From an uncultured archaeon (GTDB taxonomy: Archaea; Thermoplasmatota; Penumbrarchaeia; CAZUZU01), in the NCBI GenBank assembly GCA_964624865.1, contig CAZUZU010000001.1, forward strand, positions 2,823-49,064: 46,242 nt of DNA, written 5' to 3'. Under the pieces are notes generated by a model. That model saw nothing but the letters and a program-made list of their open reading frames with translations. It did no database searches and had not been told where the DNA came from. Shown here piece by piece: positions 11,637-46,242 of this stretch. Within the stretch, counting starts at the first letter, position 1. Each line of letters opens with the position of its first letter. The translations under genes and the position numbers were made by a program.

Positions 11637-11720
11637 ATGAAAAGAATCGTAGTAGCAACAGTTGTTATGACTTTGGTAGTAGTGGGCCTGATGAACATGT
11701 TCTCCATGCACGCGGAGGCG
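11637..11720 (+). other. Signal peptide of the 2,410-aa protein
   Basis: MKRIVVATVVMTLVVVGLMNMFSMHAEA|VSF has a basic N-terminus, a hydrophobic core, and an AxA-like cleavage motif. Confidence 0.6.
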
Positions 11721-22342: not shown

Positions 22343-22449
22343 TAATCCGTATTTTTTATATTCGTTTTTCGTATCGATGCCTTTATATCCGTATGAGTGG
22401 GCCCGGGGGAAAGATTTATAGGTGATCGACCCGTAAGAAAGATGATACA

Positions 22450-29841: not shown

Positions 29842-30085
29842 CGGTAAAGTCATGAAGTTTTATTTGTGGTTTGGTAAGTTCGAAGTCAAATGTATGTATG
29901 CTTGAATGCATGATGTTGGCCCTCTTCGGACGAACCTCTGCGCCGACAGTAAAGGGGACAGGGTAGCCCCGCGTGACGACAACCAACACCTGAGAAATTC
30001 CCGGGGCTTGTCCCTCTCCCTACTATAGCCAGGTAAGTTCCTTTGGCTGATGTTGGGAATAAATACGTATATTGGATGTGGTAGC

Positions 30086-30190
30086 ATGGAGAAAGATCGA
30101 AGCCAGAAGTTGAGAAACGTGAAACGAGCATTTTCAATAAGTGCGATATTTATATTGTTAATATCCGGGATACCCATGCTCGTGAGTGCG
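30086..30190 (+). other. Signal peptide or N-terminal anchor of the giant protein
   Basis: A basic N-region (KLRNVKR) is followed by a hydrophobic core (AFSISAIFILLISGIPMLV) and then VSA|LDG. Confidence 0.6.
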
Positions 30191-33100: not shown

Positions 33101-36100
33101 ACCTATGAACAATGGGACGCCCTGTTGTTAAATAAGTCTACATCGGACGTGGATAATTTCATTACGGTTTCGGTACTTGATGGAGAAACGAACTCCACAA
33201 TCACGGGATATTCGGAATTGAGCGGTAGTTACATCCCGCTTTCGGGTATAGATACTTACCTGCATACCTCATTGAAGCTTAGATTCGATTTTATCACCGA
33301 CGGGTCCAATCCTCCTGAATTGTACGAGTGGCAGCTGCACAAAACCCCCAGATGGTCATACAATTACATATACGATTGTGAGAATGGCATCCGTCTCAAC
33401 GGCTCGAGCCCGTTGATATCCAACAACTACATATACAAGAACTCGGAATCGGGTATTTCAATCGATAACAGCTATTCCTCGACATTGGGCAGGAGAATGA
33501 CTTACGAGAACGTTCAATTGTTCGGAGCCAGCCCGGTGGAATACGATTTCGATACGAGCGAGGGTTTTGCTCATATGGACGACCAGACCAATTCGCAATC
33601 TTTCTGGAACTCCACCACGCAATCCATAGATTTTATCAGCAATACTAACGATCCCGCCGGTTCCTTCGAGAGGATGCAGATTAACCTATCCACCAAGTTA
33701 TCCCCCAATTCGTTCTGGTCTCTTGAATCAGAATTCCATCTGACCTTCCGTAACAATTCCGAGGGTGCATACGGTGACATGAGCGTAATTCCCGTCTTGT
33801 TGAATTCAACAGATGACGAATACGGTAGGATTTATGTTCACGCGTACGGAGGCAACGATACTATCAATAACAACTGCGATGTGATTAGCATCTATTATCA
33901 ATCTTCAATAGGGGCATCGAACACTACGATATGTCAATATTACTCAGACGATACAGGGAACGGGTCATACGACGGTGATTACTTTATTCGTATCTGGTAT
34001 CATCCGTGGGAATCCACCCTGTACGGTCAGATATGCAATGCAAGCAAGCAGTCCGATGTATTGGCGTCCGGCTCCTTGGTCAAACCAAATATATTGATCG
34101 AGAATATCTCGGCAGGAGTTTGCGCGGGTCAGGGATCTTCGAGTTCGAATTATTACGAAGGATACGTAAACGAAATAAAGTTATATCTAGGCCTCCCCGA
34201 GATTATCGAATCGGACGATCTTAACGTCACGCCTTACAACGCATCTTTGAACAAAGTGTCCGAAACGAGCGGCTATTTAGTGACGGCACCCTTGACAATC
34301 GACGACTACTACACGGGCGTCTCTCTCAACCTGACGACAACGGAACCAGCAAACACCTCGATATCCGTGTCGATCCTTGATGCTGTTACCGGTGATGCAA
34401 TAGAAGGATTCGAAAATTTGTATTCCAATGATATAGGCCTTGTCAATCTCACCGACGACAGTAATCACGGGTTCAAACTTCGTTTCGATTTTCAAGGTGC
34501 GAACAATTCCACTCCCGTGTTGAGCAAGGTGTTGTTCAGGTACTATCACTACGAGAAATCGGGCGGTGTTATAGACAACGTGGTATATCACAACCACGAC
34601 GGCATAATGGTTGGTAACAACTCCGATTTCGTTTCAATAGTTGGCAACACGATATTCGACAACACGAGGTACGGTATCCACATGGAAGGTGCGAACCGAT
34701 TGTTCGAATATCAGGGCTTAAACGGCTACGGGTTGTCAGACGGTATTAACTTCGATAGCTCGGGAAGCAAGGAGAGTATAATATCGCTGCCTCCGAGGAG
34801 CGGGATATACGACATGAACTTCACGGTCTCGGGCGAGAAATATATACCCTACGGACCATTGGGGAGTGATTACTATTTCCAAGGCACGAGAACGAACTCC
34901 ACCGTCAACATGACGTTGAACGGAACGATAAACGTCACCGTTCCTACGAATTGGACCGCAAGCTACGCGGTCGCTTCATACACGAACCTGACGGACAACG
35001 GTGTGGAGACGAACTCGTCAAACGTCAACCTGTCGTGCAACCACTCGGGAACCAACCTGCAATTCGATATCAATTCCTCGGTCTATTTCAATTCCTCGGT
35101 TCTGAACCAGACCACCGATATTCTTGCATTCAATTTTACCGTGAATCAAACCGACATAGAAGGAAATCTATCCGTGGTTTTGACCTTTACTCTCCAGAAA
35201 CAAACCCTATGGGAACAACAGGAAGACGGATATGACATCTCGGTTGATCTGGACCCTTCCAAAGTAAATCTCTCTGGTTTAAAACTTATCATTCCGATTC
35301 CCAACAATGGTTTCGTTTATGCCAACGCATCTGTTTATAATTCCACTTGCGAGGACCCCGTCGATTATTCTTCCAATCTCTCTACGGATAATAAGGACTC
35401 GGGATACGTTGTGTTCGACATAGGTGCCATTGATGAAGATGACTTCACCGAGAGTTGGGACTATCAACATGAGATGGACACATGGAGCGATTCCCATCAC
35501 CCCACCGGATGGTCCACTCTAACCTACACCAATGCGAATTACATCACCCACGACACAGAAGGCGATAATGATTATCTATACAGCAATGAACAAACGGATT
35601 GGGACGACTGCGGTCTCCAGAAGTGGAATATCGACCTGGGTGAGGACTATACTATCGAGACGAGGGTAAATATATCCAGTGGGGGTTTTTGCGCGTTTAA
35701 ATATTACGACGGCTCGTATAGTTGTGGATTATCAGTTTCCGAGGGGTCCTTTGGGATCGACACGTCTCAATGGCATACTTACAGAAAGGTCGCGAACGAC
35801 GGTGATTATAAGTTCTATATCGACGGAGAGCTCGATAGCAGTGGCAGTCTGTCCTCGGACACGAGCAACTCGCACGAGTTCTGGATGGCATATACGTCCC
35901 TCGCCGGTATGGTCACCGGATGGATTGACTACATCAAGTGGAGGTCTGATAATGAAGACGCCGAACTTACTTTTGATGCGAACCTCACCTATTACCTAAA
36001 TAACCCCTCCCTCTCTCTGGGGGACGTCACTCTCTGGTCCCACACCGGCGAGTTCAATACCACCGCCACACCGATGAACAACACCACCGCCAAGGAATCG

Positions 36101-39100
36101 TATATCAAATCGCTGAACCAGGCCCTGGAAAGCGACCTGACGTCAAACGATCTTACTTTATCCGTTTCAGCGGCGAGCGCGGGGTACATGAATATATCCA
36201 ATCTCGGGTTCCACCTGGTCAGGCGCTCGTATATCGGGAAGAACAGGATATGGGGCGGCGAATACGGCATATACGTCAATAATAGCACTTCCGTGCTGGT
36301 GGATGGGAACCACGTCCTGAATTCCGAGGTGTCAGGTATCGAACTGGCCAACTGCAGCGGCAGGCAAAGGTCGTTGAACAGCCTTAGAGGCGGTCTCTCC
36401 AACGGTACCTACTCTTTCGACGACGATTCGCTGACCACAGGCGAGAACTGGGAGATGACCGTACCGGACGGCTCCGTGATCACTAACATGTCCTTTGACC
36501 TGAGCGGGGAGAGCTACGTGCCTCTATACAACCTCAGCGAGAGCCACGAGTACACGGGCTCGATATCGTCCCAATACAGCGGAATGCTGCCCGCCAATCT
36601 CAGCGGATATAAACCGTCGAACTGGAACAATATCACGGAGATGACCCTGGACGCTTCCGTCGATTCCCTGGATTACGGTGATTGTCTCTCGCTGTTCGGG
36701 CTTGATGCCGTCTCCGATACCACCTATACTTACCTCTGGAACAGGAGCAAGGACGAAATGGAGTCCTCCACCGTCGATTATTACAGGCCCGCCGTAGCCG
36801 ACCTCGTCCCTACGAGAGGGTATAGGATAGGTTACATATACTCCTACAATTCGACCGAGTTGAACGCGTCCATATGGAACGGAAGCGCATGGATCGATCA
36901 CGTTAACCTGACGGCGAACCTTACGACCAATCAGAAACAATGTTTCGCACTCGACTTTGAATATGTCTCTCTGGACGGCGTTGCTTTGTGGGCGGAATAT
37001 AACGGTACCGCCGAATATCTGAGATGGGCCACATATAATTCGAGCGGTTGGGATATATCCAATCAAACGATAAACGTTTCAAACGTCAGGTGGATCACGA
37101 TGTCTGAGGTCGGCACCACCGGTACGTTCCTGGCCCTTCTCCAGCTGTCGAACGGCACAGTTTATTCTATGACCTGGAACGGGAGTGAATGGGACAACTC
37201 CAGCGTTACCGAGATATCGAATTCCTCCGTTTCCACGAGTTATTGCGGTATTGCGCTGACCGAATACAACGGTAATATAATTGCCCTTTATTCCGAAACG
37301 GGCGGACTCAGATATCGTATCTATTCTAACGGCTGGGGTTCCGAACAGACGGTTACCGGCATCAGTTCACCTTACTGGGTGGAACTTGTAACCAACAAGG
37401 ACGGCACGGTTTGCGGAGCTGCGTCCACCTCCTCGAAAGACCTCTACGGTCTCGCCTTCACGGGCGGGAGTCTAAAAGAATCGAGATTGTTATGCGAAGA
37501 CGGCCTTCACACCACCACATCTCCGTGTTTCGACGTCGTAGCCGACAGCGTGGGGGATTTCTACTTTATTTGGTCCAGAACCGATTACTTCAACTTCAAC
37601 ATTACATGGTACAACGGCGTTTACTGGATAAACCAGAGCTACTGGAACAACACCTATCCGGATCACGAGGACACGATAGGTCACTGGCATTTCGATACCG
37701 GATATGGCTCGACCGTTGTGGATTCGTCGGGCTATTATTACAACGGTACGATCCATAATGCCGAATGGGACTACTCAGGCAGGTTCCACAAAGGCGTGTT
37801 CTTCAATAGCACGGAAGGGAACAATTACGTTGAATTCGACGATCACGTCTCAACTTTTGACGATTATTCACAGGGAATATTGGAGCTGTGGTTCAAGTGG
37901 AACGGTACCGATACCGGGGGCACCCTGTTTTTCCTTGGCGACAAGGATACGACGAACGATTATGCGGCTCTCAGGGTGGGCAGCTCTACCTCCAATTTTA
38001 ACGATGAAAGCTTGGGGTTCGTGTTCTTTGAAGGCGGAACCTGCAAGCTAGGTGCATATGCAAGGAAAGGGGAAACTCATTACCGGGACGGTCAGTGGCA
38101 TCACGTGGCATGGGTGGTCGGGGAGGACTTCAATTATATGTTCATAGACGGTAAGAAGGAAACGCTGTCATATGATTACGGCAGCTCGTCCACGGGTAAT
38201 TATTTCCTGAACGTTAACAATGCGGATACAATGACCCTCGGATTGTCGAACAATTCCATCTCACATGATTTCTTCGGCAGCATAGACGAAATGCGTATAA
38301 TCGACGACGAGTTCGTGAAACCGCTTGACGCTCACTGGATCGAAGTGGTCGCGGATACCGAATCCGACAGGATGTTCCTGGTAGCGACGGGCGATTCGTA
38401 TCTCATACACTCTCAATACGAGGATTCCGAATGGACCGATACGGAGAAGAGCTCCTATTATCTATACAGCCCTTGCGACAGCTCCAGGTCGCTCGACGCT
38501 TCCTTCGAGAGGATAAACTTTCCGCCCACTCCCTTTTCCGCAGCGATGAACGTCACCCACAACAACAATACCAAGACGTATACAGAGTCTAGTGATACAA
38601 TTACGTATACCTATTCGGACAACCTGACCTGCGTGAACGTCAGCGGTGCGGACACCTATAACTTCACAGTCGATTCCGATCTGATTAACGTATCCTCGGA
38701 TATATTGCTCACCGTCGATGCAATTAATACGACCTCCGCGAACTGGACATATGTCTTCGACGCCTCGAGCTACAATGCGACCAACGTTACCGACGGGTAC
38801 AGCATCGAGATAACGCTTTGGGCGCCTGTCGGTGTAAACGTTACCAACCCGCAGTTGAAGGTCTACACCCCTTGTACCAGCTATATGGAGGCGAATGTAA
38901 CGGTTGTGGGTCAGAACGAGAACCTTACCTCCGACTACATCGATTACTCGTGCAAATCGGACGGGTATATACTACTCGACCTGTCCGGGTTGAGCGAAAT
39001 CGGCTGGGTGTGGAACTACTCGGCAAATAATATCACGATCAATGTCACGCTTAGGTTCTCGCCCGGAGAGTTGAAGCTTGATATTGGGGGCGACGGCGAC

Positions 39101-42100
39101 AACGAGTGGGAATACACCGGCAACGATACGTTCCTTGTGGACGCATCGGTGAACGGCTTTGAGCCCGCTCTGTTGTCGGAACAGAACGTGCACGTGAGCG
39201 ACGATTCAGTGGGATACAGCTACATCCCGCTTGAGATAACCTCGGATTATGCAGGGAATGTCACGATTTCCAATCTGACCGTTTATTATAATATCTCGGC
39301 TGTAGTTAGGAACAATAATGTTATTAATACCGGGAATACGATGATAAATGCTGCGGATTCCTGGAGCAGAATCGTGTCAAATATCGTGGCTTCGGACAAT
39401 TCGTCAAGCACGGGCATAAAGAACAGGGAATCCGGAACCAAAGGAGATTCGGGGTCTTTGATATTCGACAATATAATCACAAATTCTGGAGATTACGGAA
39501 TAAACATCAACGTGACAGGCACGGTTATGAACGGCAACACGATATCAAACCCGGATTACGGCATATATTTCGACGAGGCGTCATATAACGCCGTTGGTGA
39601 TAACATAATATCGAATTGTACCGATTACGGCATATATCACAGGGACGAAAATCGAAAGGAGTTCGGCCCTGAGATGTATACCGAAATTTTTTCAAATACC
39701 ATTTCAGGCTGCAACATGGGATTGTACATGGATTCGGTAAACGACACCGTTTATTCGAACACGTTTTCTGGTTGTGATTACGGGTTCTCCTGGTATAACT
39801 CGTATGTAGGTAATGTCACAGGCAACAACTTCGACAACTGCAGTTACGGCGCCTACGCCTATGTGGTGGAAGATGAAACGACGTTACTCGCCGGGAACGA
39901 TTTCTCAAACTGCGACGTTGGTCTGAGCATGTTCGGCACCGGCAACGCCACCATCAGGAGCAACAAGTTCACGTCCAACACATACGGGATAAGGCTGCGT
40001 AGGGAGTTCAATTCCACAAAGCCCTACAACGTCACTGTTGATTACTGCGACTTCGAGTACAACATGTATGGCGTGGCAGCGTCCAACGTAACGTTCGAGA
40101 TAAACAACTGCACGTTTACATCCAACACTTTCAAGGACGTGTCCCTGCAAAGTACCAAGTCAAGCAATATGACCGACATTGAAACGGACCTTGGGGACAA
40201 TGCCGGTATATTCATGGAGGTGTCGGCAAACCTCAGTATCCAGAACAATACCTTGGAGATAATCAGTGCGGTCGAGTCGGGAGACGTTGACGGGGACGAC
40301 GACGACGATCTCGTAGGATTGTATAGAAATACCACGAGAAACGACTATGGAATCGTGGTTTGGGAATGGGACAACGGCGATTGGGACGACCCGGTTTACA
40401 TAAATTATACGTTAGACGAAGGCGACGAGTTCTCATCAATAAATATAGCCGATTTTACTGAAGACGAAGGCGAGGAAATATTAGTGATATTGAACAAAGA
40501 TGCCGACAATTCAAAAGCCTATATTTATTCCTATGTGGACCGGGCAATCAAGTATGAATTCTCCGATATCGGACCGGACACCGAGGAGTGTATCGTCTAT
40601 GATTACGACCTCGACGGCGACAACGAGACCGCGTTCATCGTCGAGGATTCGGACCAGGTGTGGATATTCGAGGAAGGCGGGGGAAGCTGGAATAGAATCG
40701 GAACCGTTGATGTGATCTCGAACCCCATTTACGGCGATTACGGCAACATCAACTCGTCGATCCCCAACTATCAAGAACTGGTAATCGTGGGTGAATACGA
40801 CGATCCGATAGGGAAGCTCTCGGTCATAAAATACGACGGCGGTTTCGAATCGGAGGATTACACATTTTCCAAGAGGGTGACGGAGGGCGTATCGGTCCTG
40901 GACTGCGACGGCGACGGCACTAAGGAGGTGGTGGTGACCTTCGCAGGCGAGGCGAGGATCATGTCATATGATACAGGCGAGTGGACGGTGGAGAACTCGG
41001 TGGACCTGCCGTGGGACCATAAATCCCGGGTGGAGAGGGGAGATTTCAACAACGATTCAATCGAGGATTTCATGCTCGGCTGGCGGGAGATTGTCAACAA
41101 CGATATGTACATCTACACCGCCTACTGCTACTTCTGGAACGATAATGCCGACGACTACGCAATAGTCAACATGGAGTTCAACATGACCCACAGCGTGGCA
41201 TACGACACGGAGGGAGGGGTTTCCATAGGCGACCCGGACAACGACGACGTGCCAGAGGTGGTCATCGCCCTGGAGATCGAGGGTGACGGCGAGAACCAGG
41301 ATGTGCTGGTGTACGACCTCGATTACTCCCAGGGATTCGTGAATCGAACGGTACGGGTGCAGGTGTACAACGACACCAACGCCCCCCTGGAGGGCGTGAG
41401 CGTCGCGGTCAGGGATGCGGAGGGCGCCGTAAGGTTCAGCGACACCACGGGATCGGACGGGCTCACGGGCAACCATATCGTGCCGCTCAAGGAGTTCAGA
41501 GGGGACGTATCGGACTACAAGATCATATACTACTCGCCGTTCAACGTGTCGGTGAACGACACCACGGAGTATTCGCTGGTGCGCCACTGCACCGTGATAC
41601 CCGGCACCGGCATTGCGACCATCAAGATGTGGCTGGGCGAAGACACGGACCAGGACGGGCTTACTAATGGGGAGGAGAACAACAGCTACCTCAGCAACTG
41701 GAGCAGCGAAGACACGGACCAGGACGGACTTAGCGACGGATACGAGGCAGGGATCAACGCCAGCACTTGCCCGAGGTTCTACAATTCCAGCACGAGCAGG
41801 TGGGAGCCCACGATCATCGATACCGGCAGGTACGCGCCGAGCGGGAGGAACGCTACCAGTGTCACCAGCGTGGACACTGACGGTGACAAGCTGCTTGACG
41901 GGAACGATATCTGGCTTGCGAATATCACCACCTCGGTCTACGATGCCTGGATCGAGCGGCACTATGTCTTCGACAACGACATGTTCATCGGTGAGGAGGG
42001 CGAGGGCACGAACCCGATAGACAACGACACCGATCGGGGCGGGGTGGAAGACGGCATCGAGTACCGGAGCGGGCAGGACCCCACCACCGACACGGGTGAG

Positions 42101-45058
42101 CGTGCTAACGACGGTGACTTCGACGGGCTGACAAGGAACGACGAGGACGAGTACTACAGGGATCCGAATGATAACGACGAGGACTGTGATGGTGACGGAT
42201 TACTTGATAGCGAGGAAGAATACGGTTCAAGAAAGGGAGGGGAGCCCGGGAGTTATGTGACGAGGTCTAATGACTACGATGGTGATGGAATATCAGATGA
42301 TAAAGAGATGTGTTACGTTAATGGAGTGAGAGGTGCCTTTTTTTACGAGGCCGAAGCTTCTTATCAACGTACCTGTGGGATAAGTCATAGTAATAGTCCT
42401 ATGCCTAAGGCCATTCATATTGATCCCAACCCAGAAGCTAACGATGCGGTGATCGGAACTGCTACATCAAATCTTTTGTGTGCTTGGAATATTGAATATC
42501 CCGAGGATTGCACCGGAAGTGGCATCGATTTTAATAAAAATCATGACTCTTTGATATCCAGTCATAATTATCGATTTGTTTTAAGGATGAGAGAGAGTTA
42601 TGAACAAAAGGATTCAAAGATAAGAGTTGTAGTAAGAAATTTTAATGTGTTTGGAGAATCATTAGAAATATTTAATAATAGCATGACTGTAAATCCCAAT
42701 TCACGTGGTTATGAATGGATACCTTTTCCGCATACCTTAAATTATTATAAATCTCGGTCTCATGAATACACCCAAGTTGAATTCTATGATGTTTCTGAAA
42801 ATGATCCGGTTACAATTTGGGGGTCTTGTAATTTGGAATTGGATTCCATAATATTAATCGATGCGTCACTCCAGTATTGGCGGACACAAAGTACTCAGGT
42901 AACCTTACCATATTGTAAAGATAGTGACGGAGATCTTATATGGGACGATGACGAAGTAATAGAGGGTAATTATTGGCTTCCTGCAGAGTGGTATAAAACA
43001 AATTATGCGACAGACAGGATTGATGAACGTTCGGTAGGTTATTCCGTTAATAGAGCTACCAATGACAATGAAAACCCCGTATTAGATATTGATAATATCG
43101 ATTTTAATAATGCAATGTACTCCATATATTGCAGGGGTCTAAATGAGAAACGATGTAGTTATGAAGAGATGGATCCAAATGATTATAATTATTTTAAAAT
43201 AAAGATTCAAGGCGTAGATAAAAAATATTTTTACAATTATTACAGCGGCGGCTCATTAGGCCCCAAAGGTATCTATGATAGCTCAAATATTATTGAACGA
43301 AAAGTTTATGTCACTGATGACAAGGTATGGGGAAAAACATGGTACAATCCACCTGCCCGCGGCAAATATACCAATAATCTACACGTATATCATTGTCGCC
43401 AATTTAAACCCGATACCTCTACAAATCAAAGGATTATATTCTATGATTATAACGATTGCGGTATGAAATTTGATTGGATATCGGTAATAAAAAATGAAAA
43501 CGTAGACGATTATCTGCCTTCAAATCCTCTTTCTTTTGACACTGATGGCGATTATATTTGGGATAAGGTAGAAATTGCATATCAGGAGACAGATATGGAA
43601 ATTAATGGTGATGATTGGTACGATTGGTATGAAGGAAGAAATGAAGTAGAAGGTGTAGATTGGTATGATGATGCTCTTTGGATAGATCAATCCGAATCCG
43701 GTGTATTAAGAGCATATCATCCTTTAGGTGAGATAGATAATGATATTTATTACGATAGTGAATATAATATAGATAACAAGGACGTAATATATTTAAATGA
43801 GTATCAATATCTATCATTTGATATGTCTCTTGACAAAGAAAAAAAGGATGACGGGTCTGAACCTTTTTCTAAATTATTTTTAATTCTTGGGATCTTTTAT
43901 ACAAGTAAGAATTCTGTTGAGTATAAAATAATCAACATTGACACCGAATGTTGGCCGTCATCCCCACAAATAACATATAATTGGTATTATTACTCTGAAA
44001 AGAAAGTTAAAATCGATTTGAGAGACATAGGTTCTGTAATTTATCCAGAAGAGCAATGTAAACATAATTATTATTATCCTGTCCGATGGATAACACATAT
44101 GGCGTTTTACGCATATAGCAATGATAATTGTGAAAAAATATATAAGATATCATCAATTAGATTTGAGAAACAACTCAATCCTTTAAGTGATGATAGTGAT
44201 AACGATGGAATACAAGACGGTTATGAGATTGGCTGTTATGATTATTCTTATTCATACTTTAATTGGCACTATAAACCGAGTGGAACATCTTATAAACCGA
44301 AATATGATTATGAAAAATCTTCAGGATGTTTAGATCCCGATACCGATAATGATGCATTGCTTGATGGAATGGAGGCCCATAGACATTTATCATTAAAAGA
44401 TAAGGATACGGACAATGATGGTTTAAATGATTATTATGAATATGTTGCTTATGGACATTATGGTTTCAATGGTTACTATTCATACGGTCGTATCCCAAAG
44501 GGATATTCAGCGTCCTTGCCGTATCTTCAACATCATCCCCATACAAATATTCCGGACATTTATATCGAAATGGATTGGATGCGCAATTGTGAACCTGAAG
44601 ATAGTGATGGTAACGATGTTTGGGATTTTGTGGAGATAGCAATGGATATATTTTACAATCGAGGAATTCATCTACATGTAGATAATGGCTGTATGGGTAG
44701 TGGTTCGCAAACATCTAGAAAAGGTACGATTGAAGACGCATCTTGGGGTATAAAAAACGAGCATTTTTCAAGAGAAGGTATGGGTATATTTTATTATGGC
44801 TTAATTTGCATTGAATTATCAGGAGGATATGTGGGTAAAGGCGGTGGATATAAGATCGCAATTGCAAGTGCGAAAATGGATTCGACAAAGGAATGGGCGG
44901 GAGTGTTTTTACATGAATTGGGACATTGTGTCATCAGGGGTTGGGATGATCATTGTAATAATGATCCATGTGCAATGCAAGGAAGTTATTCTGGAGTTCC
45001 TGATCTAACTTATTGTAAGAAATGTACCGAATTAATCGATCCAGGGAAAGGGATATAA
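30086..45058 (+). CDS. Giant (4,990 aa from ATG 30086; 5,002 aa from ORF-track start 30050) mosaic secreted surface protein with a C-terminal metzincin-like domain
   Basis: About 15 kb is uninterrupted in one frame. The preferred start gives MEKDRSQKLRNVKRAFSISAIFILLISGIPMLVSA (signal/anchor). The domain calls are in the sub-features below. Confidence 0.9.
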   Translation: MEKDRSQKLRNVKRAFSISAIFILLISGIPMLVSALDGPGTDPEAKERSNPKLVWDFDVKENNGKYIAKTPVHEVEFPEYFKDGISLMIGGESIVYGIERLDYETERKQWYTRNNLTEKYTLYTEGEEKQVYWADTKPSWMNASYGEWTLYDEVSLLPGRSKVLIQGTKVVYKDAFQGVDIIFEVQFTKVKETIVLNRDFDFCVSPLRIKSRVCSMDDIAFTGGLKNIISTGANAFEIESPYYVNDNKKGDYCTFEYDAVDKNTIDMITEISNSRIRNHNVNGVPIIIDPTLGSSLSGSILYEGLSNGTVKETIDGTVTYYEDQNNRIYAESDVDISGSLILDNITLKVNSSSGSIYTINVTDSGRFDILNASAVKNNNTGYGYNLRYLSGSRGTINNSLIENVSGEYEGLRTETSELNITNSLIRNSESHGVYCNASWPVIYGNSIYNCSGDGVYYQGQSVEMDLTDEENTTTNSNLNFTSEGIRVNGSGPDTGYLITDEIELPDDCLWEGIKITEENNITGLSYLASITDPNNNPIDGFTNISGLPEYIDISSINPVKFDTIGIFVNISHPESNNGNISILTIKTGFEPKRKIVDDLSNDRYISESSGISQSNGMIAPKYGSGYAFDIDTTADFDAGDKGSNESGNVSVETSTDNYNIDAGEIQLSNRYCDKFEYADSDGETWKWDQWTPTGSWSVHENDIDTTEDGEFYQSISSTDYQQNRFYLGGESEYVLSGDFDIRMAIELGYWVYGGSYGTRQKYAHFYLRDSGGTWAYISREVDNYCTDIFRWRTANTHQYIWNYHDKTCAMRFTRTGSTLKMYYRNDMNVESESWTLKATDSSWTSNDVYVFLRFYDNAMNNYNADVHWDDFWIKEGDLKEYGYCQYGNYTTENLTIESGQVLDYVRVDHENLDSENKINWVAFLNDTGSVVANYTNNGSGITSGNYTIISDNNLDEGNLSDINGTYRINVGLKGNKSSTPVITRLSGELDTVNESYFTTTEIESETYEQWDALLLNKSTSDVDNFITVSVLDGETNSTITGYSELSGSYIPLSGIDTYLHTSLKLRFDFITDGSNPPELYEWQLHKTPRWSYNYIYDCENGIRLNGSSPLISNNYIYKNSESGISIDNSYSSTLGRRMTYENVQLFGASPVEYDFDTSEGFAHMDDQTNSQSFWNSTTQSIDFISNTNDPAGSFERMQINLSTKLSPNSFWSLESEFHLTFRNNSEGAYGDMSVIPVLLNSTDDEYGRIYVHAYGGNDTINNNCDVISIYYQSSIGASNTTICQYYSDDTGNGSYDGDYFIRIWYHPWESTLYGQICNASKQSDVLASGSLVKPNILIENISAGVCAGQGSSSSNYYEGYVNEIKLYLGLPEIIESDDLNVTPYNASLNKVSETSGYLVTAPLTIDDYYTGVSLNLTTTEPANTSISVSILDAVTGDAIEGFENLYSNDIGLVNLTDDSNHGFKLRFDFQGANNSTPVLSKVLFRYYHYEKSGGVIDNVVYHNHDGIMVGNNSDFVSIVGNTIFDNTRYGIHMEGANRLFEYQGLNGYGLSDGINFDSSGSKESIISLPPRSGIYDMNFTVSGEKYIPYGPLGSDYYFQGTRTNSTVNMTLNGTINVTVPTNWTASYAVASYTNLTDNGVETNSSNVNLSCNHSGTNLQFDINSSVYFNSSVLNQTTDILAFNFTVNQTDIEGNLSVVLTFTLQKQTLWEQQEDGYDISVDLDPSKVNLSGLKLIIPIPNNGFVYANASVYNSTCEDPVDYSSNLSTDNKDSGYVVFDIGAIDEDDFTESWDYQHEMDTWSDSHHPTGWSTLTYTNANYITHDTEGDNDYLYSNEQTDWDDCGLQKWNIDLGEDYTIETRVNISSGGFCAFKYYDGSYSCGLSVSEGSFGIDTSQWHTYRKVANDGDYKFYIDGELDSSGSLSSDTSNSHEFWMAYTSLAGMVTGWIDYIKWRSDNEDAELTFDANLTYYLNNPSLSLGDVTLWSHTGEFNTTATPMNNTTAKESYIKSLNQALESDLTSNDLTLSVSAASAGYMNISNLGFHLVRRSYIGKNRIWGGEYGIYVNNSTSVLVDGNHVLNSEVSGIELANCSGRQRSLNSLRGGLSNGTYSFDDDSLTTGENWEMTVPDGSVITNMSFDLSGESYVPLYNLSESHEYTGSISSQYSGMLPANLSGYKPSNWNNITEMTLDASVDSLDYGDCLSLFGLDAVSDTTYTYLWNRSKDEMESSTVDYYRPAVADLVPTRGYRIGYIYSYNSTELNASIWNGSAWIDHVNLTANLTTNQKQCFALDFEYVSLDGVALWAEYNGTAEYLRWATYNSSGWDISNQTINVSNVRWITMSEVGTTGTFLALLQLSNGTVYSMTWNGSEWDNSSVTEISNSSVSTSYCGIALTEYNGNIIALYSETGGLRYRIYSNGWGSEQTVTGISSPYWVELVTNKDGTVCGAASTSSKDLYGLAFTGGSLKESRLLCEDGLHTTTSPCFDVVADSVGDFYFIWSRTDYFNFNITWYNGVYWINQSYWNNTYPDHEDTIGHWHFDTGYGSTVVDSSGYYYNGTIHNAEWDYSGRFHKGVFFNSTEGNNYVEFDDHVSTFDDYSQGILELWFKWNGTDTGGTLFFLGDKDTTNDYAALRVGSSTSNFNDESLGFVFFEGGTCKLGAYARKGETHYRDGQWHHVAWVVGEDFNYMFIDGKKETLSYDYGSSSTGNYFLNVNNADTMTLGLSNNSISHDFFGSIDEMRIIDDEFVKPLDAHWIEVVADTESDRMFLVATGDSYLIHSQYEDSEWTDTEKSSYYLYSPCDSSRSLDASFERINFPPTPFSAAMNVTHNNNTKTYTESSDTITYTYSDNLTCVNVSGADTYNFTVDSDLINVSSDILLTVDAINTTSANWTYVFDASSYNATNVTDGYSIEITLWAPVGVNVTNPQLKVYTPCTSYMEANVTVVGQNENLTSDYIDYSCKSDGYILLDLSGLSEIGWVWNYSANNITINVTLRFSPGELKLDIGGDGDNEWEYTGNDTFLVDASVNGFEPALLSEQNVHVSDDSVGYSYIPLEITSDYAGNVTISNLTVYYNISAVVRNNNVINTGNTMINAADSWSRIVSNIVASDNSSSTGIKNRESGTKGDSGSLIFDNIITNSGDYGININVTGTVMNGNTISNPDYGIYFDEASYNAVGDNIISNCTDYGIYHRDENRKEFGPEMYTEIFSNTISGCNMGLYMDSVNDTVYSNTFSGCDYGFSWYNSYVGNVTGNNFDNCSYGAYAYVVEDETTLLAGNDFSNCDVGLSMFGTGNATIRSNKFTSNTYGIRLRREFNSTKPYNVTVDYCDFEYNMYGVAASNVTFEINNCTFTSNTFKDVSLQSTKSSNMTDIETDLGDNAGIFMEVSANLSIQNNTLEIISAVESGDVDGDDDDDLVGLYRNTTRNDYGIVVWEWDNGDWDDPVYINYTLDEGDEFSSINIADFTEDEGEEILVILNKDADNSKAYIYSYVDRAIKYEFSDIGPDTEECIVYDYDLDGDNETAFIVEDSDQVWIFEEGGGSWNRIGTVDVISNPIYGDYGNINSSIPNYQELVIVGEYDDPIGKLSVIKYDGGFESEDYTFSKRVTEGVSVLDCDGDGTKEVVVTFAGEARIMSYDTGEWTVENSVDLPWDHKSRVERGDFNNDSIEDFMLGWREIVNNDMYIYTAYCYFWNDNADDYAIVNMEFNMTHSVAYDTEGGVSIGDPDNDDVPEVVIALEIEGDGENQDVLVYDLDYSQGFVNRTVRVQVYNDTNAPLEGVSVAVRDAEGAVRFSDTTGSDGLTGNHIVPLKEFRGDVSDYKIIYYSPFNVSVNDTTEYSLVRHCTVIPGTGIATIKMWLGEDTDQDGLTNGEENNSYLSNWSSEDTDQDGLSDGYEAGINASTCPRFYNSSTSRWEPTIIDTGRYAPSGRNATSVTSVDTDGDKLLDGNDIWLANITTSVYDAWIERHYVFDNDMFIGEEGEGTNPIDNDTDRGGVEDGIEYRSGQDPTTDTGERANDGDFDGLTRNDEDEYYRDPNDNDEDCDGDGLLDSEEEYGSRKGGEPGSYVTRSNDYDGDGISDDKEMCYVNGVRGAFFYEAEASYQRTCGISHSNSPMPKAIHIDPNPEANDAVIGTATSNLLCAWNIEYPEDCTGSGIDFNKNHDSLISSHNYRFVLRMRESYEQKDSKIRVVVRNFNVFGESLEIFNNSMTVNPNSRGYEWIPFPHTLNYYKSRSHEYTQVEFYDVSENDPVTIWGSCNLELDSIILIDASLQYWRTQSTQVTLPYCKDSDGDLIWDDDEVIEGNYWLPAEWYKTNYATDRIDERSVGYSVNRATNDNENPVLDIDNIDFNNAMYSIYCRGLNEKRCSYEEMDPNDYNYFKIKIQGVDKKYFYNYYSGGSLGPKGIYDSSNIIERKVYVTDDKVWGKTWYNPPARGKYTNNLHVYHCRQFKPDTSTNQRIIFYDYNDCGMKFDWISVIKNENVDDYLPSNPLSFDTDGDYIWDKVEIAYQETDMEINGDDWYDWYEGRNEVEGVDWYDDALWIDQSESGVLRAYHPLGEIDNDIYYDSEYNIDNKDVIYLNEYQYLSFDMSLDKEKKDDGSEPFSKLFLILGIFYTSKNSVEYKIINIDTECWPSSPQITYNWYYYSEKKVKIDLRDIGSVIYPEEQCKHNYYYPVRWITHMAFYAYSNDNCEKIYKISSIRFEKQLNPLSDDSDNDGIQDGYEIGCYDYSYSYFNWHYKPSGTSYKPKYDYEKSSGCLDPDTDNDALLDGMEAHRHLSLKDKDTDNDGLNDYYEYVAYGHYGFNGYYSYGRIPKGYSASLPYLQHHPHTNIPDIYIEMDWMRNCEPEDSDGNDVWDFVEIAMDIFYNRGIHLHVDNGCMGSGSQTSRKGTIEDASWGIKNEHFSREGMGIFYYGLICIELSGGYVGKGGGYKIAIASAKMDSTKEWAGVFLHELGHCVIRGWDDHCNNDPCAMQGSYSGVPDLTYCKKCTELIDPGKGI
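31106..31470 (+). other. Right-handed parallel beta-helix (PbH1/NosD-like) repeat block
   Basis: INNSLIENVSGEYEGLRTETSELNITNSLIRNSESHGVYCNASWPVIYGNSIYNCSGDGVYY shows a 22-24-aa N-x-I-x-N periodicity. Shorter blocks of the same kind lie at about 33350-33480, 34565-34700 and 36230-36365. Confidence 0.7.
37681..38320 (+). other. LamG / concanavalin-A-like lectin domain (LamG_3-type)
   Basis: HWHFDTGYGSTVVDSSGYYYNGTIHNAEW...GILELWFKWNG...GQWHHVAWVVGEDFNYMFIDGKK...GSIDEMRIIDDEF. Two further jelly-roll-like segments lie at about 32105-32710 and 35448-35955. Confidence 0.7.
39302..40260 (+). other. Large parallel beta-helix (PbH1) repeat block
   Basis: There are more than 10 consecutive units. Examples: DNIITNSGDYGININVTGTVMNGNTISNPDYGIYFDEASYNAVGDNIISNCTDYGIYH, then NTISGCNMGLYMDS, NTFSGCDYGFSW, NNFDNCSYGAYA, NDFSNCDVGLSM, NKFTSNTYGIRL. 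Confidence 0.8.
40268..41330 (+). other. FG-GAP/VCBS-like repeats (integrin-alpha-type beta-propeller)
   Basis: Ca-loop motifs recur every 55-70 aa: GDVDGDDDDDLVG, ADFTEDEGEEILV, YDYDLDGDNETAFIV, LDCDGDGTKEVVV, GDFNNDSIEDFMLG, GDPDNDDVPEVVIA. Confidence 0.7.
41341..41636 (+). other. Carboxypeptidase-regulatory-like (transthyretin-like) beta-sandwich domain
   Basis: VRVQVYNDTNAPLEGVSVAVRDAEGAVRFSDTTGSDGLTG fits the typical V-x-V-x-D...PL-x-G-V-x-V...T-x-x-DG pattern. Confidence 0.55.
41637..42310 (+). repeat. TSP3-like calcium-binding repeats forming the linker before the low-GC tip
   Basis: EDTDQDGLTNGEE, EDTDQDGLSDGYE, VDTDGDKLLDGND, DNDTDRGGVEDGIE, DEDCDGDGLLDSEE, DYDGDGISDDKE. A 22-nt direct repeat gcgaagacacggaccaggacgg occurs at 41637 and 41706. 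Confidence 0.8.
41675..41712 (+). repeat. Internal copy of the 38-nt exact repeat (encodes ENNSYLSNWSSED)
   Basis: gagaacaacagctacctcagcaactggagcagcgaaga is identical to 46205-46242. It starts on a codon boundary of the giant ORF. Confidence 0.95.
44560..45055 (+). other. C-terminal zinc metalloprotease domain, archaemetzincin (M54)-like metzincin
   Basis: HELGH lies at 44912-44926, followed by CVIRGWDD-HC-NNDP-C-A-M-(12 aa)-C-KK-C (CxxC at 45014-45025). This compares with the published archaemetzincin signature HEXXHXXGX3CX4CXMX17CXXC, with altered spacings. Confidence 0.6.
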
Positions 45059-45628
45059 ATGGACAAGAAATACAGTCCGTTGATTACTATAGGTTTGGTA
45101 ATAATCCTATGTCTGGCTTTTTATTATGGTTATATTAATAATTATTTTTTAAAATATCCCTGTTATAGATATAAATATACGGTAGAAATTAATACTGATT
45201 CGCCGGAGAATTATACTATTTATGTACCAATACTGGTAAATGAAGATGATGGTGAAATATCGAAAGCGATGAATAATTTGGAGAAATCAGGTAAATGTTC
45301 ATATGAAATAACGAATTCGAGAAATGGATGGGCTATGATGATAGAGGGTATAGGAAATATTACTTTACTCTCTGAGGGTGAAAAAGAAATACAATATGCA
45401 TGGTTGAGCATGTATAATGCCTCTTATGGTGAAAATAAAAGTTTTGGTGAATATTGGATATATTCTGACCATAAAGGAAATAATTCAATAGATGTTTGGG
45501 TGTATGGTTATATAGACAAGGGACATAGTGAATTTGAAGGCAAGAGTTATGTAAGTTATGTTAGATGCCAGATTAAAGAATCGGGATGGCAGAGATATAG
45601 GGGAGATCATGGGGTATCTGTTGTTTAA
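45059..45628 (+). CDS. Hypothetical 189-aa single-pass membrane protein, translationally coupled to the giant ORF (candidate cognate partner, inhibitor or immunity protein)
   Basis: The ATG directly abuts the giant ORF stop (ataTAAATGgac). It has the same low-GC composition. An N-terminal TM helix (LITIGLVIILCLAFYYGYI) precedes a beta-rich domain of about 150 aa. No family was recognised. Confidence 0.7.
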   Translation: MDKKYSPLITIGLVIILCLAFYYGYINNYFLKYPCYRYKYTVEINTDSPENYTIYVPILVNEDDGEISKAMNNLEKSGKCSYEITNSRNGWAMMIEGIGNITLLSEGEKEIQYAWLSMYNASYGENKSFGEYWIYSDHKGNNSIDVWVYGYIDKGHSEFEGKSYVSYVRCQIKESGWQRYRGDHGVSVV

Positions 45629-46167
45629 ACACGAAAACGCCGTGAAATCTGAAGTAATACCTGGCATTTCGGGAGACCATAGCCCCCGCCCTTCTAACTA
45701 CGGAAATGCCGTATTACGGAGAGCTGGCCGGTTTTACGGTCGTTTTCCAGATAGCCGCTGAAATATTCGAAAAGAGAGATGCAAGCAAGATGGAAAGGAG
45801 AAAAAAGAAGGTAGTCAAAAATGGGAATCCTCCACCTCGGCAACGTGTGCTGGCGTAAGAAGTCCAAATCTCTTGGTATGAGCGCTTCGAGGACAACCCA
45901 TGGGGTTTTGGGCATGGGTCACCGCAGAAGCGATGAGGGAGGGCATAAAGGGCGCCGGTCCGAGCGAGTGCAGGGAGCGAGGATAGCGCTTGCGGGGTGG
46001 GAGGAAGAGTGCGAGCAGGCGTTACCGAGGTTTTTGGTACCTGTAGGTTTTTGGCGAGGTAATGCCAGCGGAGCACGAGGGGCAAAAAGACCAGGGTGCG
46101 AGCGCTACATCGAAGGCACTCGTCCGTTATCGTGTCCGTCCACAAGAGTGGAGTCGATGCCAGGCAA

Positions 46168-46204
46168 GAGAGCCGGGCACTGGCTCTCGGCCCTTTGTGT
46201 TTGT
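46168..46204 (+). terminator. Hairpin plus T-rich tract (terminator-like) immediately before the repeat junction
   Basis: A 7-bp stem pairs gagagcc (46168-46174) with ggctctc (46182-46188) around a 7-nt loop. ggccCTTTGTGTTTGT follows, ending at 46204. Confidence 0.35.
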
Positions 46205-46242
46205 GAGAACAACAGCTACCTCAGCAACTGGAGCAGCGAAGA
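46205..46242 (+). repeat. Terminal copy of the 38-nt exact repeat, running off the window end
   Basis: A character-by-character comparison with 41675-41712 gives 38/38 identity. Identity stops abruptly at 46204 (t) versus 41674 (g). The extent beyond 46242 is unknown. Confidence 0.95.

What the first reader, a model, noticed from the sequence alone, without database searches (positions are those of the whole stretch)
42160..45628. Abrupt composition and codon-usage break inside a single ORF
Within one continuous reading frame, GC falls from about 60-70% to about 23-30% on hand-counted sample lines. It returns to about 68% right after the stop of the next gene. The same peptide motif (D-x-D-x-D-G-L/I-x-D) is written with gac upstream and with gat downstream of the break. 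The transition zone (about 42160-42300) lies inside the TSP3 repeats, which are natural recombination substrates. This argues that the tip and its partner gene were acquired or exchanged as one unit.
Basis: seen in the sequence. Interest (0 to 1): 0.7.

Follow-up and report, generated by a model that had tools for sequence, protein, structure and literature searches.

The report
Exchangeable protease-tip cassette in an archaeon
The last fifth of a 5002-residue archaeal surface protein and the small gene after it form an AT-rich, self-contained "protease tip plus partner" cassette that looks swappable, much like the toxin tips of bacterial Rhs proteins.

Summary
Inside one ORF (30050-45058, 5002 aa) GC3 drops from 0.80 to 0.27 at nt 42161-42188, within a TSP3-like Ca-binding repeat. 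It stays low through the next gene (45059-45628) and recovers after its stop. The low-GC block encodes three unassignable modules, TSP3-like linkers and an unannotated metzincin-like Zn-protease domain, followed by a membrane-anchored beta-rich partner. The partner is not an orphan. In 80 metagenome loci with related protease domains, 33 partner homologs lie directly downstream on the same strand, often in tandem arrays of 2-6 pairs. These cassettes share a conserved, GC-rich 5' arm and have AT-rich variable 3' halves. In the window, 478 nt after the partner, a conserved hairpin (46107-46161) precedes an exact repeat (>=38 nt, cut by the window end) of body sequence 41675-41712. Loci L055 and L066 show the same hairpin followed by a short repeat and an alternative tip with its own partner. 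Best reading: an archaeal C-terminal displacement system resembling polymorphic toxins, a new variant of a known kind. Protease/inhibitor or toxin/immunity function is inferred. The sequence beyond the window end was not available.

The parts
30050..45058 (+). Giant surface-protein gene (5002 aa). It has an N-terminal hydrophobic segment (aa 27-47), right-handed beta-helix/NosD-like repeats, FG-GAP-like and TSP3-like repeats, and then the low-GC tip. There is no C-terminal membrane anchor.
40868..42184 (+). Last body segment, with unusually high GC3 (0.80-0.83 against about 0.62 for the host). It holds FG-GAP-like, CarboxypepD_reg-like and TSP3-like repeats, and is the presumed homology-arm region.
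41675..41712 (+). Repeat copy 1 (GAGAACAACAGCTACCTCAGCAACTGGAGCAGCGAAGA, encoding ENNSYLSNWSSE), a linker between two TSP3-like motifs in the body.
42161..42298 (+). Transition zone. The ML change point is at 42161-42188 and GC3 is intermediate up to about 42280. It contains two TSP3-like motifs, DCDGDGLLD (42182) and DYDGDGISD (42272), with mixed gac/gat usage.
42317..44194 (+). Tip, first part (aa 4090-4715). About 600 aa with no detectable homolog or family, seemingly three beta-rich modules separated by D-x-D-G-D-x-x-W-D motifs.
44192..44431 (+). Three TSP3-like Ca-binding motifs (DSDNDGIQD, DTDNDALLD, DTDNDGLND) that link the modules to the protease domain.
44537..45055 (+). Metzincin-like Zn-metalloprotease domain. 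Landmarks are DIYIEMDWM (44555), HVDNGCMGSG (44675), HELGH (44912-44926), the Met-turn candidate CAM (44969) and a Cys4 tail ending in CKKC (45014).
45059..45628 (+). Partner gene (189 aa) with an N-terminal transmembrane helix and a beta-rich domain. It belongs to an unannotated family that is always encoded just after the metzincin-like domain. GC3 is 0.25.
45629..46106 (.). Spacer with GC 0.55, purine-rich, no codon periodicity and no Rfam or tRNA match. In L066 and L064 a small nuclease-like gene sits at this position, but none is recognisable here.
46107..46161 (+). Conserved leader hairpin: a 6-bp outer stem, an AGG/GAG internal loop, a 5-bp inner stem and a variable loop. It is shared with loci L055, L064, L065 and L066.
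46205..46242 (+). Repeat copy 2, 100% identical to 41675-41712 and truncated by the window end. It is the presumed start of a downstream (silent or displaced) cassette. Its reading frame is open for 130 codons upstream.

Best explanation
The low-GC block (about 42185-45640) is a self-contained, exchangeable 3' cassette. It encodes the distal roughly 950 aa of a giant surface fibre: three modules of unknown fold, Ca-binding TSP3-like linkers and a terminal metzincin-like Zn-protease. It also carries the gene for a cognate membrane-anchored partner. The cassette is joined in frame to the body inside TSP3-repeat-coding DNA.

Cassettes of this family circulate as AT-rich units. Elsewhere they occur as stand-alone pairs, as tandem arrays and as caps on other giant proteins. 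Each has a conserved, GC-rich 5' homology arm.

Downstream of the partner, a conserved hairpin leader followed by an exact copy of body sequence marks the start of a further cassette. Recombination between the two copies of the short repeat, or single-crossover entry of a circular intermediate carrying arm, tip and partner, would replace the expressed tip together with its partner. This is C-terminal displacement as proposed for Rhs.

Shown: the composition step, the conserved protease-partner linkage, the arrays with conserved arms, and the hairpin-plus-repeat layout in the window and in L055 and L066.

Inferred: that recombination actually occurs here, that the protease is active and exposed, and that the partner is its inhibitor or immunity protein.
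For: The step is sharp, sits in a repeat motif and keeps the reading frame. Tip and partner share a non-host composition. The C-terminal domain matches solved metzincins at profile level (adamalysins at 1e-5, then serralysin, myroilysin, astacin and archaemetzincin) and has HELGH plus an archaemetzincin-like Cys4 tail. The partner has significant homologs directly downstream of related protease genes (2e-14 to 4e-5 by single-sequence search; 33 members after iteration; all on the same strand). Tandem arrays of 2-6 pairs exist in L044, L050, L053, L058, L076, L087 and L099. Their 5' arms of 200-500 nt are 83-96% identical and their 3' halves and partners diverge. The same module caps giant ORFs in L066, L090 and L101, and GC3 declines toward the 3' end along the L090 and L101 giant ORFs and the shorter L075 gene. 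L055 and L064 are AT-rich cassette islands in hosts of GC 0.52-0.63. Across the family the arm GC3s is 0.51 against 0.34 for the variable half (38 of 43 positive, p 1.5e-9), and the partner is more AT-rich than its protease gene in 28 of 28 pairs. The repeat 41675-41712 = 46205-46242 occurs 0 times in 100 shuffles. The hairpin is found only in the window and four cassette loci (47-62 bits), with 97% of cells paired and 5 of 11 pairs showing double changes. After the hairpin there is a 33-nt 100% repeat in L055 and a 44-nt 93% repeat in L066 of the upstream intact gene, then a divergent tip and a second partner. Jackson et al. 2009 describe the same anatomy and a circular-intermediate model for Rhs.
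Against: Only 38 nt of the second repeat copy are visible, so what follows is unknown. The source contig is 49,064 nt, but the remaining 2.8 kb could not be fetched. No relative of the body exists in the searched collections, so alternative tips on the same body were not shown for this lineage. The break at 42185 lies 470 nt downstream of repeat copy 1, so the current junction and the visible repeat are not the same point. No recombinase is seen in the window. About 600 aa of the tip have no assignable fold. The partner model is of low confidence (pLDDT 54), and no similarity to known inhibitors or immunity proteins was found. Zn-ligand spacing is non-canonical and the archaemetzincin model scores 17 bits against a cutoff of 145. 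The metagenome loci are partly redundant and of unknown taxonomy.
Confidence: 0.6

Rival explanations
1. The architecture is the same (an exchangeable cassette), but the function is nutritional or adhesive rather than antagonistic. The tip would be a surface-displayed protease with binding modules for protein foraging. The partner would be a maturation factor or self-protecting inhibitor, like the Inh/AprI inhibitors encoded next to serralysins.
For: The neighbourhood encodes an M14 carboxypeptidase and two SNF-family amino-acid transporters. Relatives of the domain are fused to S8 proteases, Kelch, beta-helix and Ig modules that are typical of degradative or adhesive surface proteins. Serralysin is among the profile hits. 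That adjacent inhibitor genes exist for serralysins is my own knowledge.
Against: Tandem arrays of diversified protease-half and partner pairs, with silent 5'-truncated cassettes that lack signal peptides, are characteristic of conflict systems under diversifying selection, not of housekeeping nutrition.
Confidence: 0.25
2. A single past horizontal insertion with no ongoing switching. On this reading the 38-nt repeat is an insertion footprint or a coincidental paralogous TSP3 linker belonging to an unrelated downstream gene.
For: Only 38 nt of the repeat are visible. The body itself contains near-identical neighbouring TSP3 units (D2 family, 96%), so linker duplication occurs locally. No recombinase was seen in the window.
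Against: The repeat is preceded by the same hairpin that precedes alternative cassettes in L055 and L066, where a short repeat of the intact gene also follows. Homology starts abruptly at 46205 after non-coding sequence.
Confidence: 0.15
3. No foreign origin. The step would be an intrinsic compositional gradient produced by GC-biased gene conversion in frequently recombining arms and by AT-biased drift in variable parts.
For: GC-rich arms and AT-rich variable halves are family-wide. The pre-break segment is above host GC3 (0.80 against 0.62).
Against: The step is abrupt (tens of nt) and large (0.53 in GC3). It includes a whole second gene and ends at that gene's stop. The same pairs form discrete AT-rich islands in otherwise uniform GC-rich contigs. 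This process can coexist with cassette exchange and does not replace it.
Confidence: 0.08
4. A metagenome assembly chimera that joined a low-GC organism's gene to this contig through a shared TSP3 k-mer.
For: The source is evidently a metagenome contig with no independent copy. The window ends inside a repeat, where assemblers often break.
Against: Two chimeric joins would be needed, the second in non-coding DNA. The frame is kept for 953 codons. Host-like sequence with a copy of body sequence resumes downstream. Independent contigs show the same AT-rich island in GC-rich hosts, with the same hairpin.
Confidence: 0.04
5. A diversity-generating retroelement, in which the downstream repeat is a template repeat and the AAC-rich body segment is the variable repeat.
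For: The repeat is rich in AAC/AGC/TAC codons and lies downstream of the target gene.
Against: There are zero mismatches in 38 nt. No reverse transcriptase was found among the window ORFs scanned. Mismatches between arms in related loci are not adenine-specific. The repeat lies 3.4 kb from the gene's end and not in a C-terminal variable domain.
Confidence: 0.02

Closest known systems
Rhs C-terminal displacement (Jackson et al. 2009, PMC2935791)
   Same: There is a conserved body and an exchangeable tip with a distinct (lower) GC signature, and a small gene follows the tip. Core fragment plus alternative tip are repeated downstream of the intact gene. Insertion by recombination in conserved coding sequence, possibly via a circular intermediate, would give a direct repeat.
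   Different: The host is archaeal. There are no YD/RHS repeats and no PxxxxDPxGL boundary. The arm is TSP3-like repeat DNA or the N-terminal half of the protease domain. The exchanged unit is large (about 950 aa plus the partner). A conserved hairpin precedes the downstream cassettes.
Polymorphic toxin systems, including CdiA-CT/CdiI orphan modules (Zhang et al. 2012, PMC3482391)
   Same: A long repeat-rich exported protein carries a variable C-terminal enzymatic domain. A tightly linked downstream gene co-varies with it. Stand-alone cassettes are available for recombination, and metallopeptidase toxin domains are known in these systems.
   Different: Toxicity and immunity are untested. The protease domain and the partner match no Pfam family, including its toxin and immunity entries, and none of the NCBIfam, PADLOC or PHROGs families searched. 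The partner is membrane-anchored and probably extracellular. In the arrays only the C-terminal half of the domain varies.
VARTIG module of Thermococcales (Makarova et al. 2021, PMC8416519)
   Same: It is an archaeal large surface protein whose C-terminal region is hypervariable through recombination. It has variable downstream genes and a PTS-like organisation.
   Different: VARTIG is built on Ig domains with no protease tip. No metzincin or partner pairs, arrays with homology arms, or hairpin leader are described there.
Serralysin with its adjacent inhibitor gene (AprA/AprI, PrtC/Inh), from my own knowledge
   Same: A metzincin protease is encoded next to a small beta-rich protein that protects the producer. 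Serralysins are among the profile hits.
   Different: No sequence similarity between the partner and those inhibitors was detected. Those pairs are not cassette arrays and are not fused to giant proteins.
Archaemetzincin (peptidase family M54)
   Same: HExxH is followed by a Cys-rich C(x4)C-x-M ... CxxC tail.
   Different: Scores are far below the family cutoffs (17 against 145 bits). The spacing between HExxH and the next His differs. The N-terminal half (DIFVEVDWM...LHIDDGxMGGG) is specific to this new family, and the context is extracellular.

Membership tests
Polymorphic toxin system | Large exported multidomain protein: N-terminal export signal, repeat or filament region, C-terminal variable domain | tested here: met
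   There is an N-terminal hydrophobic segment at aa 27-47 (read from the sequence), beta-helix, FG-GAP and TSP3-like repeats, and a compositionally distinct C-terminal block. Export itself is inferred.
Polymorphic toxin system | C-terminal domain is a toxin | not testable with these tools
   The domain is metzincin-like. It matches no Pfam, NCBIfam, PADLOC or PHROGs toxin family. Toxicity needs an experiment.
Polymorphic toxin system | Cognate immunity gene immediately downstream | tested here: inconclusive
   Gene linkage is met: the partner abuts the stop codon, and homologs follow related protease genes in 28 of 28 scored pairs. Neutralising activity is untested and there is no similarity to known immunity families.
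Polymorphic toxin system | Same body with different C-termini among close relatives | not testable with these tools
   No relative of the body is in the collections. In related loci, cassettes share arms and differ in their 3' halves.
Polymorphic toxin system | Downstream orphan cassettes sharing homology with the main gene | tested here: inconclusive
   In the window there is a repeat of at least 38 nt at 100% identity, preceded by the leader hairpin, but it is cut by the window end. The feature is clearly met in L055 and L066.
Rhs / YD-repeat protein | RHS/YD repeats and a conserved core-tip boundary motif | tested here: not met
   There is no RHS or YD hit in Pfam or NCBIfam scans of the whole protein.
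Rhs / YD-repeat protein | Tip with a distinct, lower GC than the core | tested here: met
   GC3 is 0.80 against 0.27. This shows that it works like Rhs, not that it is a member.
Metzincin clan | HExxH zinc site with a third ligand and a Met-turn | tested here: inconclusive
   HELGH is at aa 4955-4959. The next His is 9 residues on (non-canonical spacing), and there is a candidate Met-turn in CAM at aa 4974-4976. Family members with HExxHxxGxxH...SVMNY exist.
Metzincin clan | Sequence-profile similarity to solved metzincin catalytic domains | tested here: met
   The profile of 22 domains hits adamalysins (about 1e-5), serralysins (3e-4), myroilysin and astacin across the active-site helix.
Archaemetzincin (M54) | Reaches the curated family threshold | tested here: not met
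   NF033823 scores 17 bits against a cutoff of 145, and PF07998 scores 12 bits against 24.4.
Diversity-generating retroelement | Adenine-specific differences between template and variable repeats, and a nearby reverse transcriptase | tested here: not met
   There are 0 mismatches in the 38-nt repeat. The substitution spectrum between arms in related loci is unbiased. No reverse transcriptase is among the scanned window ORFs. The unseen 2.8 kb was not tested.

The most novel reading that the evidence does not exclude
A dedicated archaeal cassette-switching apparatus. A conserved structured leader (an RNA or single-stranded DNA hairpin with an AGG/GAG internal loop) sits 33-43 nt before a short exact repeat of the expressed gene. 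In several loci a highly conserved roughly 105-aa PD-(D/E)XK-like protein is encoded beside it. Together these would direct programmed replacement of the protease tip and its partner on giant surface fibres. That would be an antigenic-variation or self/non-self system with its own recombination signal, rather than passive homologous recombination.
Probability: 0.15. Interest if true: 0.85.

Novelty: new variant of a known kind. Interest (0 to 1): 0.64.

Why it matters
Contact-dependent or surface-mediated antagonism and self-recognition in archaea are predicted, but almost no such system has been characterised experimentally. This locus gives a concrete system that can be tested. It has an unannotated metzincin-like domain family, an unannotated partner family in strict linkage with it, silent cassette arrays with homology arms, and a conserved hairpin at cassette starts. 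It also shows that an abrupt GC3 step inside a giant ORF can be used to find cassette boundaries in uncultured archaea. The family-wide pattern of a GC-rich arm and an AT-rich cassette bears on the long-standing question of why polymorphic tips are AT-rich.

Tried and rejected
- **Source contig beyond the window:** three look-ups by exact protein failed. The contig length of 49,064 nt is known only from the partner's self-hit.
- **Relatives of the body or tip:** the indexed searches found none. A full-length query was first rejected as too long and then timed out. The exhaustive search returned only the window's own protein (P0001 is 100% identical from Met43) plus distant hits to tip residues about 600-900. 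Genome and metagenome scans with the pre-break segment found nothing.
- **Host identity:** PurL is at most about 53% identical to any GTDB representative, so there is no close relative.
- **Family libraries:** Pfam at E<=10, PHROGs and PADLOC gave nothing useful for the three tip modules or the partner.
- **Structure prediction:** the partner scored pLDDT 54, which is unusable for fold search. Tip residues 4090-4715 scored pLDDT 29.
- **Internal similarity:** there is no similarity among the three tip modules, between tip and body, or between the two giant genes.
- **Spacer:** it has no Rfam family, no tRNA, no notable fold (z = -1.2) and no terminal inverted repeats. It holds no recognisable copy of the small nuclease-like gene.
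- **DGR hypothesis:** rejected.
- **Amino-acid bias (FYMINK/GARP):** it does not separate the tip from the body (1.88 against 1.83), so it is not informative.
- **Hairpin:** the covariance-model search found no copies beyond the five sources.
- **Literature:** Makarova et al. 2019 on archaeal polymorphic toxins is not held, so I could not check whether it lists this family.

Full report
**Observation**

The window carries a 5002-aa ORF (30050-45058, + strand). It is followed without a gap by a 189-aa ORF (45059-45628).
- GC3 in 100-codon windows is 0.79-0.85 across 40850-42050 and 0.20-0.34 from 42200 to the stop.
- A maximum-likelihood change point places the step at nt 42185, with support interval 42161-42188. 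GC3 is 0.80 on the left and 0.27 on the right, and the log-likelihood gain is 204.
- As controls, the best step in the window's other giant gene gains 12, and shuffled series gain at most 4.
- The other 18 genes have GC3 of 0.46-0.82, typically about 0.62. The tip is 0.27 and the partner 0.25.
- Tetranucleotide distances put tip and partner outside the host's internal range and close to each other.
- The codon claim is correct. Asp in pre-break DxDxDG motifs is always gac, the junction motif at 42182 is mixed, and later motifs use gat.
Tip GC averages 0.35, and the post-partner DNA averages 0.55.

**Context**

The window is archaeal chromosome. It encodes Pus10 with the archaeal THUMP domain, DUF835, KaiC, PurL, an M14 carboxypeptidase, SNF transporters and a second giant surface protein. 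PurL is only about 50% identical to the nearest GTDB representatives, mostly Thermoplasmatota.

**What the block encodes**

The body has an N-terminal hydrophobic segment, beta-helix/NosD-like repeats, and FG-GAP-like and TSP3-like repeats.
- After the break come about 600 aa with no homolog among 1.84 billion representative proteins and no family match even at E<=10. A single-sequence AlphaFold model of this part failed.
- Three TSP3-like motifs follow, and then a 173-aa C-terminal domain.
- This domain belongs to an unannotated family, with motifs DIFVEVDWM...LHIDDGxMGGG...FHYCL...FMHELGH. Its profile hits solved metzincins: adamalysins at about 1e-5, then serralysin, myroilysin, astacin and archaemetzincin.
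- The window's copy has HELGH (aa 4955-4959) and an archaemetzincin-like Cys4 tail, but it is far below that family's threshold.
- Relatives carry the domain at the C-terminus of varied surface proteins (S8 protease, Kelch, beta-helix, Big_7), usually after TSP3 repeats.

**The partner is not an orphan**

In the indexed protein search the partner hit only itself. A metagenome scan with the protease-domain alignment then returned 80 loci.
- In many of these loci the domain ends its ORF and is followed, within -21 to +39 nt, by a 125-230-aa gene with an N-terminal transmembrane or lipobox-like segment.
- The window's partner matches these genes significantly (2e-14 to 4e-5). An iterated profile defines 33 members, all on the protease strand.
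- The family has no Pfam or PDB relative.
- The partner's own model (pLDDT 54) shows a transmembrane helix followed by beta strands.

**Arrays and homology arms**

Seven loci hold tandem arrays of 2-6 protease/partner pairs.
- Successive cassettes share a 200-500-nt 5' arm at 83-96% identity. This arm covers a TSP3-like motif and the N-terminal half of the domain.
- After the arm the cassettes diverge through the HExxH half, and each has a different partner.
- Most cassettes lack a signal peptide.
- The same module caps giant ORFs in L066, L090 and L101.

**The composition step is a family trait**

GC3 declines toward the 3' end along the L090 and L101 giant ORFs and along the shorter (424-aa) L075 gene. 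L055 and L064 are 2-3-kb AT-rich islands (GC3 0.14-0.33) made of exactly these genes, inside hosts of GC 0.52-0.63.
- The analysis below was done on synonymous sites, after de-duplication.
- Across 43 non-redundant genes, GC3s is 0.51 in the conserved half and 0.34 in the variable half. The difference is positive in 38 genes (p 1.5e-9) and in 31 of 36 loci.
- The partner is more AT-rich than its protease gene in 28 of 28 pairs.
- In the window, everything from the repeat to the break has GC3s 0.82, and everything after the break has 0.19-0.23.
- The step therefore marks the exchange point of a cassette. Whether it also reflects a low-GC cassette pool, GC-biased conversion of the arms, or both, is open.

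**Downstream of the partner**

The last 38 nt of the window (46205-46242) are identical to 41675-41712 in the body, the linker ENNSYLSNWSSE between two TSP3 motifs. This match occurred in 0 of 100 shuffles.
- Homology starts abruptly at 46205. The preceding 576 nt have no codon periodicity and are unique in the window.
- Within them, 46107-46161 is a hairpin with a 6-bp outer stem, an AGG/GAG internal loop, a 5-bp inner stem and a variable loop. L055, L064, L065 and L066 share it.
- An nhmmer profile built from the four loci matches the window at E 2.5e-4. A covariance model finds only these five sources, at 47-62 bits.
- 97% of cells are paired, against 26-54% in slid controls, and 5 of 11 pairs show double changes. 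The sample is small, and the structure was derived from these same sequences.
- The element is not in Rfam.
- In L055, 33 nt after the hairpin, there is a 33-nt exact repeat of the upstream intact gene. A divergent alternative C-terminal half and a second partner follow.
- L066 has a 44-nt 93% repeat 35 nt after the hairpin. In the window the spacing is 43 nt.
- This is the anatomy Jackson et al. described for Rhs: distinct GC signatures, with core fragment plus tip repeated downstream. They explained it by single-crossover insertion of a circular intermediate.

**Mechanism and function**

I conclude that the block is an exchangeable tip-plus-partner cassette, and that the locus works by C-terminal displacement (confidence 0.6).
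- That the protease is active is inferred.
- That the partner is its cognate inhibitor or immunity protein is also inferred.
- A nutritional or adhesive role is a serious alternative, given the neighbouring peptidase and transporters.
- Diversified pairs together with silent cassettes argue for a conflict role.
- An assembly chimera is unlikely, for two reasons. It would need two joins, and independent contigs reproduce the pattern with the same hairpin.
- A DGR is not supported.

**Limits**

- What follows position 46242 is unknown.
- No sister strain is available.
- The break (42185) and the visible repeat (41675-41712) are 470 nt apart.
- Roughly 600 aa of the tip remain uninterpretable.
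- The Makarova 2019 survey of archaeal polymorphic toxins could not be consulted. Literature searches found no description of this family.

**Verdict**

It is a new variant of a known kind: an archaeal system resembling polymorphic toxins and Rhs, built on new protein families and carrying a conserved hairpin leader.

Noticed in passing
L055:7180-7632(-), L066:4521-4868(-), L064:7203-7526(-), L101:7707-8126(-): A roughly 105-aa protein (MSWPNHLTKLS.ESYKHF...YVDLCD...YEIEFHVSKKYRNRK...IVDCSKLP...) is 85-88% identical across four cassette loci whose protease and partner genes are highly divergent. It gives weak, consistent sub-threshold hits to PD-(D/E)XK nuclease PF08011 (E 0.009-0.06). In L066 and L064 it lies between the partner and the hairpin. 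No copy is recognisable in the window.
   Followed up: partly
window 45815-46204: The frame in phase with the second repeat copy is open for 130 codons upstream (9 of 5000 shuffles), although the stretch has no codon periodicity. A 143-codon frame is also open on the opposite strand. Purine-rich, T-poor composition may explain part of this. In L055 the equivalent leader is also in frame with its cassette, starting from an ATG.
   Followed up: partly
window 30050-42184: The body of the giant gene is itself compositionally mosaic, with GC3 blocks of 0.54 (30050-35737), 0.65 (35738-40867) and 0.80 (40868-42277). There is a local low of 0.32-0.47 at about 31550-32500, and a 0.37 jump between adjacent 150-codon blocks at 31520. 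Older module exchanges may be involved.
   Followed up: partly
window 11637-18869: There is a second giant surface protein (2410 aa) with eight Big_7 stretches, Big_13, many TSP3 repeats, a C-terminal transmembrane anchor and a repeated KRHGPDSFEAK cytoplasmic tail. It has no similarity to the 5002-aa protein and no composition step (best gain 12).
   Followed up: partly
L090:7270-7905: After the AT-rich partner of another giant protease-tipped gene, GC rises to 0.5-0.66. The sequence contains G-run motifs (for example GGGAGGGGATGGGCGAGGGGG) that could form G-quadruplexes. It has no hairpin-model hit and no Rfam hit.
   Followed up: no
L064:8045-8162, L066:5356-5485, L065:1280-1395: The four-locus leader element extends about 120 nt upstream of the hairpin that the window shares. 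It includes a second hairpin of the same design with different outer-stem sequence (GGUGA/UCGCC). The window lacks this 5' part.
   Followed up: partly
window 20789-23916: Two adjacent SNF-family (sodium:neurotransmitter symporter) ORFs lie next to an M14 carboxypeptidase gene, which suggests a peptide and amino-acid scavenging lifestyle. The first ORF's best Pfam stretch covers only profile positions 4-117.
   Followed up: no
L073-L080, L083, L105, L106, L108, L115, L118 (gut-metagenome contigs): A separate subgroup of proteins of roughly 920 aa carries the metzincin-like domain mid-protein (about aa 406-600) with a tail of about 358 aa. GC3 is about 0.5 upstream of the domain match and 0.32 from the match to the ORF end. 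No partner gene follows; instead there is a GC-rich (GC3 0.70-0.76) 141-aa gene 250 nt downstream.
   Followed up: no
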